Part shown: in pieces, positions 1 to 5,728 of the stretch | Layout: every line of letters begins with the position of its first letter | How positions within the stretch are numbered: position 1 is the stretch's first letter | From: a virus | Taxonomy: Duplodnaviria; Heunggongvirae; Uroviricota; Caudoviricetes | Virus record (IMG/VR): IMGVR_UViG_2778261058_000011 | Coordinates: 1 to 7,517 of that record | Length of the DNA stretch: 7,517 nt | Reading direction: 5' to 3' (one strand) | Translations under genes and position numbers: made by a program | Notes under the pieces: model-generated | Databases searched by the model: none | What the model saw: only the letters and a program-made list of their open reading frames with translations | What the model was told of the DNA's origin: nothing

Positions 1-5
1 AGTAT

Positions 6-281
6 TTAGCGGGCATGAAAATGGCAAATAACGGTCAAACATCGTGGCGTTGACAGTGAAACCGCTTCCCTGTTCTCGTACAGGAAAGCGATGTACATCA
101 GGCAACCAACACGTATTGCCGGGGTAAATTCCAGCCCGTCTTCAAAACGTTTCCCGATATGCTTCTGGCAGGCTTCCAGCGCCGCATCGGTATACATTTT
201 CAGAAGTTCGCCTTCTCCGGAAAAGTCATCAAGGCGAAGATGTGCCCTGACTTCATCAGGTGTAATTTTGTCTTCACTCAT
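6..281 (-). CDS. head-tail connector protein (gp6-like)
   Basis: ORF-track ORF 6..368 trimmed to the ATG at 279-281 (MSEDKITPDEVRAHLRLDD...), 91 aa. An AGGTGA-like RBS sits about 6 nt upstream and the start overlaps the portal stop by 8 nt. Size, the ITPDEVRAHLRLDD / DAALEACQKHIGKRF pattern and the position right after portal fit gp6-type connector proteins of HK97-like heads. Family call is from memory. Confidence 0.65.
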   Translation of the reverse strand: MSEDKITPDEVRAHLRLDDFSGEGELLKMYTDAALEACQKHIGKRFEDGLEFTPAIRVGCLMYIAFLYENREAVSLSTPRCLTVICHFHAR

Positions 282-3519: not shown

Positions 3520-3768
3520 TTATTGTTTCACTGGATCCCGCATTCTGCGTCTTATTTTCCACAGATATTCGATCATCGCTTCCACCTGCTCACGGTTGGT
3601 TGCGAAAATTTCCCCGGTCAGTGAGCTGCGCAGAAAATCATGATGATCCACAACAAACAACGCATCGGAAGAAAGCAGACGGCGATATTTTTTTGCTGTC
3701 GTGGTTTCCAGATCATCAAAACCATGAAACTTTTTATGTTGCTGAACTTCTTCAAATGTCACTGGCAT
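3520..3768 (-). CDS. hypothetical protein (82 aa), last gene before the terminator
   Basis: ATG at 3766-3768 with a strong AAGGGGGA RBS 4-10 nt upstream. The start overlaps the stop of the upstream 89-aa ORF by 8 nt. No recognisable motif; basic C-terminus (WKIRRRMRDPVKQ). Confidence 0.55.
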   Translation of the reverse strand: MPVTFEEVQQHKKFHGFDDLETTTAKKYRRLLSSDALFVVDHHDFLRSSLTGEIFATNREQVEAMIEYLWKIRRRMRDPVKQ

Positions 3769-4028
3769 GTATCCCCCTTTGCTGCCCGGCGCTGGCGCTT
3801 GTGCTTCTCATTCAGCGCCATCAGCCGCGTTTCAGCCTCCTGCCGCTCCTGTGGTGTCACTTCCCCACATGGCTGGCCTTTCAGGTCGTAACGTGCACCA
3901 CCAGCCATCAGGGCGCGGTAATAGCGCGGAGACTGCGCATAAGATGCCAGCGTCGCACGTAATGCCCCTGGCCCGAATGCCAGCCCCCTGACGGCGATAT
4001 CCTGCATCAGGTCGTCGAATATCCCCAC
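3759..4028 (-). CDS. hypothetical protein (89 aa, or 82 aa if the ATG at 4005-4007 is used)
   Basis: The track ORF begins at a GTG (4026-4028); the first ATG is at 4005-4007. RBS context is weak for both. It is in register with the flanking genes and coupled to the 82-aa ORF. No recognisable motif. Confidence 0.4.
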   Translation of the reverse strand: MGIFDDLMQDIAVRGLAFGPGALRATLASYAQSPRYYRALMAGGARYDLKGQPCGEVTPQERQEAETRLMALNEKHKRQRRAAKGDTCQ

Positions 4029-4062
4029 CTTCAGCGGCTTCGGTGCTTCCCGGCTGAATAAG

Positions 4063-4293
4063 TCAGTCAGGCCACAACTCAGTAAGGCGGTTAACGCGCC
4101 TGCGGTTTTTTCGCTGCCGTTTGGTCATATGCCGCCACGGTGTCGCCCCTGTGGGCTTCTGCTGTGCGTTCTGATTGCCGGGTATCACTTTATGCGCCGA
4201 TGTGGTTTTATCCTGCTGCTGTGCCGCCTGCGTCGTTTCTGACTGCGTGCCGTAAATGCCTTTCGGTTTTCGGTTAATGGTCAGCTTTGTCAT
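4063..4293 (-). CDS. hypothetical small protein (76 aa), Gln/Thr-rich with basic C-terminal tail
   Basis: ATG at 4291-4293 with a GGGGAAGG RBS 1-8 nt upstream. Low-complexity middle (TQAAQQQDKTTSAHK...NAQQKPTG) and an arginine-rich tail (KRQRKNRRRVNR). Could be a disordered nucleic-acid-binding protein; function unknown. Confidence 0.45.
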   Translation of the reverse strand: MTKLTINRKPKGIYGTQSETTQAAQQQDKTTSAHKVIPGNQNAQQKPTGATPWRHMTKRQRKNRRRVNRLTELWPD

Positions 4294-4329: not shown

Positions 4330-4755
4330 TTAAAACGGTATCCCGTCCCCGTACGGGTCATCGTGCTGGCCTGTCTGTTGTTTTGCCCTGTTCAGTGCGT
4401 CAGTGGCCTGGCCCTGCTGGCCTTTTTTGCCGCCCGGTCGCGCCGTTCTGGCACTGATTACACTGTCTGCGATAACCTGCCAGCCCTGCCGCGTTTCGCC
4501 GTTCTGGCCTGTCCACTGGCTTACCTGCATGTTACCCGCCACGCTCACCAGTTCGCCTTTCTGGTGCCTGGCCAGTGCATCGGCCTGTCTGCCAAACGCC
4601 AGGACGGATAACCACATCGTCGCCGTTCCGTCATCTGCCTGGCTGCACGGCAGGGGAACCGCCATACTCGCCATCGCCATTTGTGTCCCTTTGCTGGTGG
4701 TCTTTAACTGCGGGTCAGCCACCAGCCGCCCGTAAGCTGCTATCTGTGCTGTCAT
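4330..4755 (-). CDS. ssb: single-stranded DNA-binding protein (short SSB)
   Basis: 141 aa. The N-terminal OB-fold region aligns by eye with E. coli SSB (AYGRLVADPQL... and TMWLSVLAFGRQADALARHQKGELVSVAGNMQVSQWTGQNGE). A Gly/Gln-rich linker follows, and the C-terminal DDPYGDGIPF matches the acidic DDDIPF-type SSB tail. The start overlaps the stop of the upstream ORF (ATGA). Confidence 0.8.
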   Translation of the reverse strand: MTAQIAAYGRLVADPQLKTTSKGTQMAMASMAVPLPCSQADDGTATMWLSVLAFGRQADALARHQKGELVSVAGNMQVSQWTGQNGETRQGWQVIADSVISARTARPGGKKGQQGQATDALNRAKQQTGQHDDPYGDGIPF

Positions 4756-5525
4756 GCTGTATGCTCTCCGTTTTTTACTGGCCCTGTCATCAGTGCGCGC
4801 TTAAGCTGCTTGTGTGAGATATTAAACAGGCAGTTCATTCTTCCCGTTCGCTTCACCCGATAACCCGATGCGACCATTGCGGCGATTAATGCGCCGTTTG
4901 TGATGTATGTCGGCTCTGTTGGTTGCCCGTCGCCCTTAGCTCTTCTCTGATTCACACGCTCAACACAATGTTTCAGGCCGTAGGATGTCGGATTTTTTCC
5001 AGGGAATGATGCAATCTTACAGTCGGTTAGGTTGTTCTCCCTTATCCAGCGTAAACAGCTCATCGCCTCCGCCATGAAGGGCGCATAATCAAGCGGGTGC
5101 TCCCATGCCTTATCACGGCTGTACAGTTCAAGTCCGTCGCGGTTAAAAAAAGGGTAAGCGGCAAGAATTACCGTTACTGCGTGTTTAATTTCCACCTCAT
5201 CATTCTGTCGCTCTTTTTCCGTTCCGTGCGGGTAATAATCAGAACCGCCCGGATTGATGCACCGTTTACCGCTGAAAGGCCATTGCTTCGCCATTTCGGG
5301 TGTTGAGTGATTACCGTCGCTCCGTTCTCGTTGTGCCTCTGTCCACTGGCTGGCGTATTCCGTAAAACTCACCGCCTTGCTCTGTCGCATCCAGTGCGCA
5401 ATCATGACCAGCGTTCTGGTAAGGCTCTGTATATCTCCGTGCTTCTCACACTGTCCCGCAAAGGCCTTGAGCGCTTCGCGTTCTTTGTAGTTCATACCCT
5501 GACAGGTCATATTTTCTTTATCCAT
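4752..5525 (-). CDS. hypothetical protein (~257 aa), possibly replication-associated
   Basis: Long ORF (track 4752..5555 from a GTG). I prefer the ATG at 5523-5525, which has GGGGAG 9 nt upstream; ATGs at 5508-5510 and 5493-5495 are also possible. The stop overlaps the ssb start, and the 5' end lies inside the iteron array. No motif I can assign. Function is inferred only from position between ori and ssb. Confidence 0.55.
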   Translation of the reverse strand: MDKENMTCQGMNYKEREALKAFAGQCEKHGDIQSLTRTLVMIAHWMRQSKAVSFTEYASQWTEAQRERSDGNHSTPEMAKQWPFSGKRCINPGGSDYYPHGTEKERQNDEVEIKHAVTVILAAYPFFNRDGLELYSRDKAWEHPLDYAPFMAEAMSCLRWIRENNLTDCKIASFPGKNPTSYGLKHCVERVNQRRAKGDGQPTEPTYITNGALIAAMVASGYRVKRTGRMNCLFNISHKQLKRALMTGPVKNGEHTA

Positions 5526-5728
5526 TCCCCACCACTCCCCACTTTTGCTCCCCACTTTTTAAATTCCCCACTTGCTCCCCATCTCGTTTTTTGGGTGAAT
5601 CTAATGCTTTGTTTTTCATTGTGTTTTTTACTCCCCACTTTTTTGGATGTATACAGGTCGAAAAGTGGGGAATAGTGTTTCAATTTTGTTAAATTCCCCA
5701 TACTCCCCACTTTTACTCCCCACTTTTT
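5525..5728. repeat. iteron array flanking an AT-rich spacer; candidate replication origin
   Basis: Copies of (C/T)TCCCCA(C/T)TTTT at 5535-5546, 5548-5559, 5564-5573, 5575-5582, 5631-5644, 5694-5701, 5703-5714 and 5716-5728, a degenerate copy at 5525-5533, and one inverted copy at 5661-5671 (AAAAGTGGGGA). The two clusters flank an AT-rich stretch (5585-5630). The array begins at the rep stop codon. Confidence 0.6.

What the first reader, a model, noticed from the sequence alone, without database searches (positions are those of the whole stretch)
5525..5728. Iteron-type origin immediately 3' of rep
About nine direct copies and one inverted copy of an ~11-bp motif (consensus CTCCCCACTTTT) form two clusters around a ~45-bp AT-rich spacer, starting at the rep stop codon. 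This matches the layout of rep-adjacent iteron origins in island and plasmid replicons: initiator-binding repeats flanking an unwinding region. The rep stop codon lies inside the last iteron, and the likely start of the next gene lies inside the first cluster.
Basis: partly seen in the sequence, partly recalled or inferred. Interest (0 to 1): 0.6.

Follow-up and report, generated by a model that had tools for sequence, protein, structure and literature searches.

The report
Satellite island replication origin repeats
The repeats are real and are almost certainly the replication origin of an E. coli phage-satellite island, where the island's own helicase binds to start DNA copying; this kind of origin is already described, so the finding is sound but ordinary.

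Summary
Ten copies of the core TCCCCA(C/T), nine direct and one inverted, lie in 5524-5728. This is exactly the non-coding gap between the stop codon of a RepA-family helicase gene (minus strand, 7133..5727) and the ATG of the next gene (5525). Shuffled sequence gives 0.4 copies on average.

The window is part of a capsid-forming phage-inducible chromosomal island (cf-PICI). PICIs are already described as having an origin immediately 3' of rep, with two iteron sets flanking an AT-rich region (Fillol-Salom 2018), but the origin tested there belongs to a different rep allele.

New support comes from comparison:
- 88 RepA-type elements in E. coli and other Enterobacterales were compared; most keep the same layout at the same place.
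- The repeat sequence changes in concert at all copies.
- It tracks residues at the start of the recognition helix of Rep's C-terminal winged-helix domain: K-H-F goes with GTGGG and K-N-F with GTGAG.
- Syntenic islands with other rep types carry other repeats at the same spot.
- There are no DnaA boxes, promoter or terminator.

Verdict: a Rep-bound iteron origin, a new member of a known kind. Rep binding and replication remain untested.

The parts
5727..7133 (-). rep: a 468-aa RepA-family helicase with three parts. These are an N-terminal alpha/beta domain, a RecA-fold AAA_25 core and a C-terminal winged helix. It is the putative initiator-helicase.
   Evidence: Pfam AAA_25 scores 3.3e-43 over residues 146-317. 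The RSF1010 RepA structure 1g8y matches at E 3.9e-5. Foldseek hits are to RadA, Rad51, T7 gp4 and Twinkle cores. RefSeq names the homologues 'helicase RepA family protein'.
5730..5948 (-). Coding region for Rep residues 396-468, the C-terminal winged-helix DNA-binding domain.
   Evidence: The AlphaFold2 model of the domain alone has pLDDT 88.6 and pTM 0.76, with topology H-H-H-beta-beta. The best PDB matches are all winged-helix DNA-binding domains (DtxR/IdeR, LexA, HrcA, Fur, MarR, PadR, MCM4 WH), with probability 0.95-0.99 and TM 0.6-0.7.
5772..5801 (-). Codons for the predicted recognition helix, K445-L454 (KHFRRWLYKL). It includes H446, which co-varies with the repeat sequence.
   Evidence: Helix 445-454 appears in both models. 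Elements with K-H-F/L have GTGGG repeats and those with K-N-F/M have GTGAG repeats; this holds in the 88 elements compared wherever such an array is present.
5693..5728 (+). Rep-proximal iteron cluster of three direct copies: ATTCCCCAT (degenerate), ACTCCCCACTTTT and ACTCCCCACTTTTT. The last copy overlaps the rep stop codon by 1-2 nt.
   Evidence: The stop codon also overlaps or abuts the first repeat in relatives from other genera.
5674..5692 (.). Short A+T-rich spacer (79% A+T).
5661..5673 (-). The single inverted iteron (AAAAGTGGGGAAT on the + strand). It is one arm of the head-to-head pair.
   Evidence: (I1-I6). An inverted copy sits at the same offset from the stop codon (about +45 to +60 on the rep strand) in most relatives.
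5645..5660 (.). Centre of the head-to-head pair, GGATGTATACAGGTCG. It contains the palindrome TGTATACA (5648-5655). This is a candidate site for helicase assembly or first melting (inferred).
   Evidence: The 14-17 bp centre with a (T)GTATAYA or ATATATA motif is kept in E. coli, Xenorhabdus, Pantoea, Kluyvera, Kosakonia, Serratia, Pectobacterium and Rosenbergiella elements whose repeats differ.
5630..5644 (+). Direct iteron (ACTCCCCACTTTTTT). It is the other arm of the head-to-head pair.
5585..5629 (.). 45-bp A+T-rich spacer (71% A+T). This is the putative DNA-unwinding element.
   Evidence: On the rep strand, the 20-nt windows at offsets 100-120 are 75-80% A+T. The spacer's position and length are conserved in 14 E. 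coli elements, while its sequence is only partly conserved.
5524..5584 (+). Rep-distal iteron cluster of five direct copies, with cores at 5526, 5536, 5549, 5565 and 5576. Start-to-start spacing is 10, 13, 16 and 11 bp.
   Evidence: A cluster of several direct copies (typically 2-5) sits at the same offset in relatives.
4752..5525 (-). Next gene, a 257-aa protein of unknown function. Its ATG abuts the outermost repeat, and its Shine-Dalgarno-like GGAG lies inside a repeat. It marks the boundary of the rep-ori module.
   Evidence: The annotated start in L001 is at the same base. The gene is unrelated to the 83-aa gene found at this position in most relatives, yet the ATG position is the same.
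4330..4755 (-). Island-encoded single-strand DNA-binding protein. It is part of the replication module (inferred).
   Evidence: Pfam SSB scores 8.1e-16. An SSB gene is present downstream of the repeats in nearly all relatives.
7130..7429 (-). DUF4222 gene that overlaps the rep start codon. It may be a replication accessory gene; its function is unknown.
   Evidence: Pfam DUF4222 scores 1.6e-24. It lies directly upstream of rep in every island examined, whatever the rep type.

Best explanation
Region 5524-5728 is the replication origin (ori) of a capsid-forming phage-inducible chromosomal island.

**Shown by the sequence and by comparison**
- The region is a non-coding array of ten ~12-bp repeats. 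On the rep strand they read AAAAGTGGGGAG.
- The array lies between the stop codon of the island's RepA-type helicase gene and the next gene.
- Its architecture is conserved across Enterobacterales. Reading from rep, it is:
  - 2-3 direct repeats;
  - a short A+T-rich gap;
  - a head-to-head repeat pair around a TGTATAYA centre;
  - a ~45-bp A+T-rich stretch;
  - 4-5 direct repeats.
- The repeat sequence changes at all copies together. It changes in step with residues at the start of the recognition helix of Rep's C-terminal winged-helix domain.

**Inferred mechanism**
1. After induction and excision of the island, Rep monomers or hexamers bind the repeats through the winged-helix domain. His446 probably reads the G that becomes A in elements with Asn at this position.
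2. Binding on both sides bends or strains the DNA. The A+T-rich stretch, the TATA-like centre, or both then melt.
3. The RecA-fold helicase part of the same protein loads itself onto the single strands. No DnaA is needed, since there are no DnaA boxes, and no separate loader is needed. This is the way SaPI Rep and P4 alpha work.
4. The island's SSB coats the strands.
5. A host primase and DNA polymerase III then replicate the island for packaging.
For: **1. The repeats are real and far beyond chance**.

**2. The context is a PICI.**
- The window encodes DUF4222, a RepA helicase, SSB, ProQ/FinO, an HK97-type capsid protein, a protease and a portal protein.
- The 97%-identical island in L001 adds an integrase, an HTH regulator, an Icd-like protein, a head-tail connector, HNH, TerS and TerL. 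It has no tail genes and lies between hpt and gcd. This is the cf-PICI gene set (10.1101/2022.09.08.507074).

**3. Published rule.** PICI origins lie immediately 3' of rep and have two iteron sets flanking an A+T-rich region. The EcCICFT073 pri-rep-ori segment drives plasmid replication, and deleting the ori abolishes it (PMC6092414). SaPI Rep binds such iterons through a C-terminal winged helix (PMC9371898).

**4. Conservation.**
- 661 of 5426 complete E. coli genomes match the segment.
- Thirteen fetched E. coli relatives all keep a gap of about 200 bp with the same repeat slots.
- Most of the 76 RepA-type loci analysed from the genome-contig scan (species of Enterobacterales other than E. 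coli) do so too.

**5. Concerted change and co-variation with Rep**.

| Helix motif | Repeat core | Found in |
|---|---|---|
| K-H-F/L | GTGGG, 7-11 copies (0-1 GTGAG) in those with a clear array | 14 of 16 elements with this motif |
| K-N-F/M | GTGAG, 2-11 copies (0-1 GTGGG) | 26 of 28 elements with this motif |
| xKKF | GTGGGGG | |
| VRKSF | TGCGGC | |

The H/N switch recurs in at least three sequence backgrounds: E. coli EMK[H/N]FRR, E. coli D[T/V]K[H/N], and Pantoea NTKH versus Xenorhabdus NVKN.

**6. The co-varying residues sit where a base-reading residue should.** H446 is the second residue of helix 3 of a confidently modelled winged helix.

**7. The winged helix and the repeats move as one unit, apart from the helicase body**.
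- L009 Rep is 91% identical to the window's Rep overall but has another helix motif and other repeats.
- L002 Rep is 65% identical overall but has the same helix motif and the same repeats.

**8. Other rep types bring other repeats to the same spot.**
- Islands with the same capsid module but a DUF927-type or primase-type rep carry TTTTGCGGGTTAT or TGTTCACC at the same place.
- EcCICFT073 carries CTGTCTACC there.
- The TGTTCACC units are the annotated type-1 ori repeats of P4.

**9. No competing features.**
- No sigma-70 promoter or terminator lies in the array.
- There are no DnaA boxes, GATC sites or conserved IHF sites.
- There is no Rfam family or tRNA.
- Indels of 1 nt among relatives exclude coding.
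- There is no second repeat cluster elsewhere in the island.
Against: - Nothing here is experimental. Rep binding, melting and Rep-dependent replication have not been shown for the RepA-type allele. The published functional test used EcCICFT073, whose Pri-Rep is a primase-type protein with unrelated repeats.
- The winged-helix codons and the repeats lie within 100 bp of each other, so part of their co-segregation is plain linkage.
- SaPI origins are described as having at least two iterons on each side of the A+T region pointing in opposite directions (PMC9371898). Here 9 of 10 copies point the same way.
- The full-length Rep model is poor in the ATPase region (mean pLDDT 61.5).
- No primase was identified in the window, so the priming step is assumed.
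- Which A+T-rich element melts first is unknown.
Confidence: 0.85

Rival explanations
1. The array binds Rep but is a regulatory operator rather than the origin. Rep bound here would act as a roadblock or translational repressor for the downstream genes (the 257-aa protein, SSB and the packaging genes). Replication would start elsewhere.
For: The array lies inside a unidirectional operon. The next gene's ATG abuts the outermost repeat, and its GGAG Shine-Dalgarno-like sequence lies inside a repeat. The head-to-head pair resembles a dimer operator.
Against: No promoter-like site lies in the region. The gene downstream differs between relatives while the array stays the same. In the one PICI tested, the equivalent segment is required in cis for replication (PMC6092414). 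A+T-rich stretches between repeat sets are an origin feature, not an operator feature. No other repeat cluster exists in the island that could serve as the origin. A dual role is not excluded.
Confidence: 0.07
2. The repeats are binding sites for a protein other than Rep. Candidates are the small terminase (a packaging site), a partition or segregation protein, or a host factor.
For: Arrays of short direct repeats also occur in pac sites and centromere-like sites. The island encodes its own TerS and TerL.
Against: The repeats follow the rep type and Rep's recognition-helix residues, not the packaging module. The same capsid/terminase module occurs with three different repeat families. The same repeats occur with different capsid modules. 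The array is about 7 kb from terS in L001.
Confidence: 0.03
3. The repeats are non-functional: a chance cluster, slippage products, or a remnant of a decayed origin in a defective island.
For: Some relatives have frameshifted rep genes (L007, L010). The window itself carries a frameshifted ProQ/FinO-family gene, so parts of this island may be decaying.
Against: The count is far beyond shuffles. The slot-by-slot layout is kept across many genera, with concerted sequence changes, which requires selection. The window's rep ORF is intact and 100% identical to a protein seen on 19 contigs.
Confidence: 0.02

Closest known systems
Origins of Gram-negative PICIs (Fillol-Salom et al. 2018, ISME J, PMC6092414). 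EcCICFT073 pri-rep-ori is the tested example.
   Same: - Same island family and the same gene order: int, alpA-like HTH, DUF4222, rep, ori, small gene, SSB.
- The origin lies immediately 3' of rep and has two sets of short iterons flanking an A+T-rich region.
- RepA-type islands appear to be in that paper's catalogue already. EcCIDI14 is listed at the position that corresponds to L003.
   Different: The island tested there, EcCICFT073, has a primase-type Pri-Rep of 584 aa and CTGTCTACC/GGTAGAYA repeats in a 288-bp gap. The window has a RecA-fold RepA helicase of 468 aa and CTCCCCACTTTT repeats in a 201-bp gap. This allele's origin has not been tested. The window's island is of the capsid-forming (cf-PICI) type.
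SaPI origins and SaPI Rep self-loading helicases (PMC9371898 and the work cited there).
   Same: - Six to twelve short iterons lie immediately downstream of the rep ORF.
- There is a central A+T-rich region.
- Rep carries a C-terminal winged-helix domain that sets origin specificity.
- No separate loader is known.
   Different: SaPI Rep is an AAA+/SF3-type helicase. The protein here has a RecA-fold (AAA_25, RSF1010 RepA-like) core. SaPI iterons are 5-6 nt and point in opposite directions on the two sides. Here the conserved unit is about 10-12 nt and 9 of 10 copies are co-directional, with a single head-to-head pair.
Satellite phage P4: alpha protein with ori and crr.
   Same: The initiator is a multidomain helicase with a C-terminal origin-binding domain. 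P4's crr repeat block lies just 3' of the alpha gene, which is the position of the array here. Some islands syntenic with the window carry the P4 type-1 repeat TGTTCACC and a rep C-terminus similar to that of alpha.
   Different: The window's repeats and Rep are unrelated to those of P4. P4 needs two separated cis sites (ori and crr), whereas only one cluster exists in this island. P4 alpha includes a primase domain.
IncQ plasmid RSF1010: oriV with RepA, RepB and RepC.
   Same: The window's Rep core is homologous to the RSF1010 RepA hexameric helicase (1g8y, E 3.9e-5). This origin also combines iterons with an A+T-rich region (from general knowledge).
   Different: In RSF1010 a separate protein, RepC, binds the iterons, and RepB' primes (from general knowledge). 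Here the iteron-reading winged helix is fused to the helicase, and no RepC or RepB homologue was seen in the window.
Classical iteron plasmids (pPS10, RK2, F, R6K) with Rep_3-type initiators.
   Same: Direct repeats bound by a winged-helix initiator lie next to an A+T-rich unwinding element, close to the rep gene.
   Different: Rep here gave no Pfam match other than AAA_25, so no Rep_3. The repeats are about 12 bp rather than 17-22 bp. There are no DnaA boxes. The initiator is itself the helicase. The element is an integrated satellite that replicates in bursts, not a copy-controlled plasmid.

Membership tests
PICI/SaPI-type rep-adjacent iteron origin | The origin lies immediately 3' of the replication initiator gene. 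| tested here: met
   The array starts at the rep stop codon (5727-5729) and fills the gap up to the next ATG. The same holds in most of the 88 relatives.
PICI/SaPI-type rep-adjacent iteron origin | Two sets of short iterons flank an A+T-rich region. | tested here: met
   Five copies lie at 5524-5584. Beyond the 45-bp, 71% A+T stretch at 5585-5629 lie five more: the head-to-head pair and the three rep-proximal copies.
PICI/SaPI-type rep-adjacent iteron origin | At least two iterons on each side of the A+T region point in opposite directions, as stated for SaPIs in PMC9371898. | tested here: not met
   Nine of the ten copies are co-directional. Only one copy (5661-5673) is inverted, and it forms a single head-to-head pair with 5630-5644.
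PICI/SaPI-type rep-adjacent iteron origin | The initiator carries a C-terminal winged-helix domain that determines iteron specificity. | tested here: met
   A winged-helix fold is modelled with pLDDT 88.6 and matches DtxR, LexA, MarR and MCM winged-helix domains. The recognition-helix motif tracks the repeat sequence in the 88 elements. This is in-silico evidence only.
PICI/SaPI-type rep-adjacent iteron origin | The rep-ori segment drives autonomous replication, and the ori is required in cis. | not testable with these tools
   This is shown only for EcCICFT073, a different rep allele (PMC6092414).
Capsid-forming PICI (cf-PICI) | An island of about 15 kb that carries an integrase, an alpA-like regulator and rep, plus its own capsid, protease, portal, connector, HNH, TerS and TerL genes but no tail genes. 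| tested here: met
   The window has capsid, protease, portal and connector genes. The 97%-identical island in L001 has the full set, lies between hpt and gcd, and has no tail genes. The gene set is as described in 10.1101/2022.09.08.507074.
Capsid-forming PICI (cf-PICI) | Induction by a helper phage and transfer in particles that use helper tails. | not testable with these tools
   No experimental data exist for this element.
Classical iteron-plasmid origin (Rep_3 initiators) | A Rep_3-family initiator with two winged-helix domains. | tested here: not met
   AAA_25 is the only Pfam hit for Rep. A single winged helix is modelled.
Classical iteron-plasmid origin (Rep_3 initiators) | DnaA box(es) within the origin. 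| tested here: not met
   No TTWTNCACA match with up to 1 mismatch occurs in 5500-5750. None of the 88 relatives has a perfect box.
P4 ori/crr | TGTTCACC type-1 repeats bound by the alpha protein, with two separated cis sites. | tested here: not met
   The window's repeats are CTCCCCACTTTT. There is only one cluster in the island. P4-type repeats occur only in relatives with a primase-type rep.
IncQ (RSF1010) replication system | A RepA hexameric helicase together with a separate iteron-binding RepC and a RepB primase. | tested here: inconclusive
   Homology of the helicase core is met. No RepC or RepB family hit was found for any window protein, but only the window's ORFs were scanned.

The most novel reading that the evidence does not exclude
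The RepA protein is a RecA-fold (SF4-like) replicative helicase that acts as its own origin-recognition protein and loader, through a fused winged helix. This would be a bacterial-satellite counterpart of the SF3 initiator-helicases (SaPI Rep, P4 alpha, SV40 large T antigen), built on a different motor.

On this reading the conserved head-to-head repeat pair around TGTATAYA is where two hexamers assemble. Origin specificity among co-resident satellites would be set by a near one-residue, one-base code, His446 for G and Asn for A. That code could be re-programmed by a single mutation.
Probability: 0.4. Interest if true: 0.5.

Novelty: new member of a known kind. Interest (0 to 1): 0.25.

Why it matters
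The segment marks the cis-acting replication origin of a cf-PICI, a family of phage satellites that moves virulence and defence genes between enterobacteria. Knowing the origin, and which Rep residues match which repeats, has three uses:
- rep-ori modules can be typed in genome surveys;
- one can predict which satellites can cross-replicate or are incompatible in one cell;
- there is a simple engineered test, H446N against GTGAGG repeats.

It does not change the current picture. PICI origins of this design are already described, so the value is confirmatory, with a modest gain in mechanistic detail for the RepA-type allele.

Tried and rejected
- **Coding potential.** ORFs cross the array (5507..5755 on the - strand; 5307..5675 and 5647..5910 on the + strand). 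They were rejected because relatives differ by 1-nt indels in the array.
- **Promoter and terminator scan.** Nothing was found in the array. The two terminator-like hits lie on the non-coding strand inside the next gene.
- **RNA genes.** The Rfam and tRNA scans of the whole window found nothing.
- **Host-factor sites.** There are no DnaA boxes and no GATC sites, and only one weak, non-conserved IHF-like match.
- **Phage and plasmid collections.**
  - In the phage collection only the capsid module matches, at about 75% identity.
  - The repeat segment has just 3 plasmid hits, one of them on a 1.4-Mb record. It is therefore not a plasmid origin.
- **Full-length Rep model.** It was mediocre (pLDDT 61.5), and its fold search returned only RecA-core hits. 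The winged helix was therefore modelled separately.
- **Locating EcCICFT073.** The first guess at CFT073 coordinates landed in a lambdoid prophage. The island was found on the second try.
- **E. coli ED1a.** The record is not in the collection.
- **Literature search for TGTTCACC.** It returned only primer sequences. The annotated P4 record was used instead.
- **NCBIfam and PHROGs.** They gave no function for the 257-aa, 82-aa or 76-aa proteins.
- **The Fig. 2a question.** Figure 2a of PMC6092414 is not held, so I could not check whether this exact repeat sequence is drawn there.
Full report
**1. What is in the sequence**

All genes in the window are on the minus strand. A 468-aa ORF (7133..5727) ends with TAA at 5729-5727. 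The next ORF starts with ATG at 5525. The 201 bases between them hold the repeats.

The core TCCCCA occurs ten times in 5526-5722, nine times on the + strand and once on the - strand (5666-5671). Only four more copies occur in the rest of the window.
- Five copies match CTCCCCACTTTT exactly.
- The inverted copy has one mismatch.
- Four copies are degenerate.

Shuffling shows this is not chance:
- Dinucleotide shuffles of the 204-bp region gave a mean of 0.44 copies and a maximum of 4 in 5000 trials.
- No 6-mer reached more than 5 copies in shuffles, against 10 observed.

The layout is richer than 'two clusters around one spacer'. Reading the + strand:
- five direct copies (5524-5584);
- a 45-bp, 71% A+T stretch (5585-5629);
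- one direct copy (5630-5644);
- a 16-bp centre containing the palindrome TGTATACA (5645-5660);
- the inverted copy (5661-5673);
- a 19-bp, 79% A+T stretch (5674-5692);
- three direct copies (5693-5728).

**2. Context**

Pfam assigns the window's proteins as follows, in transcription order: DUF4222, AAA_25 (the 468-aa protein), no family, SSB, ProQ/FinO, no family, phage capsid, prohead protease S78 and portal.

The best E. coli match (L001, 97% identity over 98% of the window) is an island between hpt and gcd.
- It adds a tyrosine integrase, an HTH regulator and an Icd-like protein upstream.
- It adds a head-tail connector, HNH, TerS and TerL downstream.
- It has no tail genes.

That is the gene set of capsid-forming PICIs (10.1101/2022.09.08.507074).

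The 468-aa protein is annotated 'helicase RepA family protein'. It matches the RSF1010 RepA helicase structure 1g8y, and its core folds like RadA and T7 gp4.

**3. What is known about such islands**

Fillol-Salom et al. 2018 (PMC6092414) state three things:
- The region immediately 3' of rep in Gram-negative PICIs is the origin.
- The EcCICFT073 pri-rep-ori segment maintains a ts plasmid only when both rep and ori are intact.

For SaPIs, Rep is a self-loading helicase whose C-terminal winged helix recognises iterons placed just after the rep ORF (PMC9371898).

I located EcCICFT073 in CFT073. Its Pri-Rep is a 584-aa 'DNA primase family protein', and its origin repeats are CTGTCTACC/GGTAGAYA. 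The published functional test therefore concerns another rep allele.

RepA-type islands do seem to be in that paper's catalogue. EcCIDI14 is listed at CP002212 249047-259688. This matches the position of L003 in the sister strain clone D i2.

**4. Comparative tests**

*(a) Conservation.*
- The segment has matches in 661 of 5426 complete E. coli genomes, nearly all chromosomal.
- Thirteen fetched relatives all have a gap of about 200 bp between the RepA stop and the next ATG, with repeats in the same slots.
- A scan of one genome per species returned 80 loci from Citrobacter, Xenorhabdus, Pantoea, Kosakonia, Kluyvera, Pectobacterium, Serratia, Morganella, Erwinia and others.
- In most of them the same architecture follows the rep stop codon:
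  - 2-3 direct copies;
  - an inverted copy at about +45 to +60;
  - a direct copy at about +75 to +90;
  - an A+T-rich stretch;
  - 3-5 direct copies.
- The 14-17 bp between the head-to-head pair keeps a (T)GTATAYA or ATATATA motif even where the repeats differ.

*(b) Concerted change.* Within an element all copies share one sequence, but between elements the sequence differs:

| Repeat, rep strand | Elements |
|---|---|
| GTGGGGAG | window, L001-L003 |
| GTGGGC/T | L006, L007, L009, L011 |
| GTGAGG | L005, L010, L013, Xenorhabdus |
| GTGAGTA | L008, L012 |
| GTGGGGG | Pectobacterium, Serratia, Morganella |
| TGCGGCA | Kosakonia cowanii, Phytobacter, Enterobacter soli, Rosenbergiella |

*(c) Co-variation with Rep.* The last ~30 residues of Rep vary in step with the repeats.
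- Among elements with K-H-F/L before RW, 14 of 16 have 7-11 GTGGG cores and 0-1 GTGAG. The other two lack a clear array.
- Among elements with K-N-F/M, 26 of 28 have 2-11 GTGAG cores and 0-1 GTGGG. The other two lack a clear array.
- xKKF goes with GTGGGGG, and VRKSF with TGCGGC.
- The H/N switch appears in at least three backgrounds: EMK[H/N]FRR and D[T/V]K[H/N] in E. coli, and NTKH in Pantoea versus NVKN in Xenorhabdus.
- His pairing with G and Asn pairing with A fits the usual side-chain and base preferences. That last point rests on general knowledge, not on a test here.

*(d) Where these residues sit.* AlphaFold2 models residues 400-468 confidently.
- In the full-length model pLDDT is 77-92 for this part.
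- The domain modelled alone has pLDDT 88.6 and pTM 0.76.
- The topology is helix, helix, helix (445-454), then a beta hairpin.
- The best PDB matches are winged-helix DNA-binding domains (DtxR/IdeR, LexA, HrcA, Fur, MarR, PadR, MCM4 WH), with TM 0.6-0.7 and probability 0.95-0.99.
- H446 is the second residue of the third helix, which is the recognition helix.

*(e) Modularity.*
- L009 Rep is 91% identical to the window's Rep but differs in the helix motif and in the repeats. L002 Rep is 65% identical overall but shares both. The winged helix and the repeats therefore travel together, apart from the helicase body.
- Islands with the window's capsid module but another rep type carry another repeat family at the same place:
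  - TTTTGCGGGTTAT/ATAACCCGC after a DUF927-type rep (L014);
  - about a dozen TGTTCACC after a primase-type rep (L015).
- The latter are the annotated 'ori type 1 repeats' of P4. P4's crr block also lies just 3' of alpha.
- The gene after the array is unrelated between the window and most relatives, yet its ATG is at the same base. The rep-ori unit therefore ends exactly there.

**5. Rival readings**

- **Operator for downstream genes.** This is not excluded as a second role, because the next gene's ATG and GGAG abut or lie in the repeats. But there is no promoter, the downstream gene is variable, and A+T-rich spacers are an origin feature.
- **Packaging or partition site.** This is unlikely, because the repeats follow rep and not the terminase or capsid module.
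- **Coding, RNA or host-factor sites.** These are excluded or unsupported.
- **Second cis site.** None exists in the island.
- **Linkage.** Linkage between the winged-helix codons and the repeats could explain co-segregation. It cannot explain why up to ten or so dispersed copies change together.

**6. Mechanism**

Steps shown by sequence and comparison:
- a conserved non-coding array sits at the rep stop codon;
- the repeat sequence changes in concert;
- the changes correlate with winged-helix recognition residues;
- DnaA boxes are absent.

Steps inferred:
1. Rep binds the repeats through its winged helix.
2. The A+T-rich stretch, the TATA-like centre, or both melt.
3. The RecA-fold helicase loads itself.
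4. The island's SSB stabilises the single strands.
5. A host primase and polymerase complete replication.

Which element melts first, and how priming occurs, are unknown.

**7. Comparison and verdict**

The region works like SaPI/PICI origins and sits in a PICI. It meets the positional, architectural and winged-helix criteria for that kind of origin.

It differs in three ways:
- the motor type is a RecA-fold RepA rather than an SF3 or primase-type protein;
- the repeats are longer;
- the repeats are almost uniformly oriented, so the SaPI rule of opposed iterons on both sides is not met.

It is not a Rep_3 plasmid origin, a P4 origin or an IncQ oriV.

The finding is a new member of a known kind, and it may already be drawn in a figure I could not see. 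Interest is low to moderate at 0.25. The most useful by-product is the one-residue, one-base correlation, which gives a direct experimental handle.

Noticed in passing
window 3759-4293 (- strand), around 4060-4066: The ProQ/FinO-family gene is split into two ORFs (4293..4063 and 4028..3759). The cause is a 4-bp CTGA duplication relative to the intact 180-aa gene in L001. The window also lacks a 12-bp stretch in the N-terminal part. This is probably a pseudogene or a sequencing error.
   Followed up: partly
window 7130-7429 (- strand): A DUF4222 gene overlaps the rep start (ATGA). It lies directly upstream of rep in every island seen, whether rep is of the RepA, DUF927 or primase type. This suggests a conserved but unknown role in replication or its control.
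   Followed up: partly
window 4752-5525 (- strand): The 257-aa gene after the repeats has no family assignment apart from a weak C-terminal PHROG hit. It is unrelated to the 83-aa gene at this position in most relatives. Even so, both start at the same base next to the outermost repeat, which gives a sharp recombination boundary.
   Followed up: partly
window 5645-5660; also L018, L036, L040, L042, L050, L056, L058 and L077 at about +55 to +75 after the rep stop: A (T)GTATAYA or ATATATA motif lies between the head-to-head repeat pair. It is conserved across genera even though the repeats themselves differ. Its role is unknown; it may be a first-melting or helicase-assembly site.
   Followed up: partly
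L015 5980-6225; L098 (phage P4) 4291-4590: Islands with the window's capsid module but a primase-type rep carry about a dozen TGTTCACC units, which are the annotated type-1 ori repeats of P4. Their rep C-terminus is about 71% identical in DNA to P4 alpha. P4's crr lies just 3' of alpha, the same position as PICI origins.
   Followed up: yes
window 5730-7133 (- strand), Rep residues 17-124: The N-terminal ~110 residues of Rep are modelled as a compact alpha/beta domain (pLDDT 60-90) with no family hit. It comes in two clearly different sequence types among E. coli relatives, and these assort independently of the C-terminal domain.
   Followed up: no
L019, L029, L034, L087 (Xenorhabdus and an Enterobacteriaceae MAG), first 200 nt after the rep stop: These elements keep the NVKNFSRW helix but have AAATGAGGA repeats instead of AAGTGAGGA. 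Their Rep differs in the wing region (…LENDGLITRN…QRNDD), which hints at a second specificity contact outside the recognition helix.
   Followed up: no
window 1-55: The first 55 bases are 100% identical to a stretch of Enterobacteria phage fiAA91-ss, where no feature is annotated.
   Followed up: no
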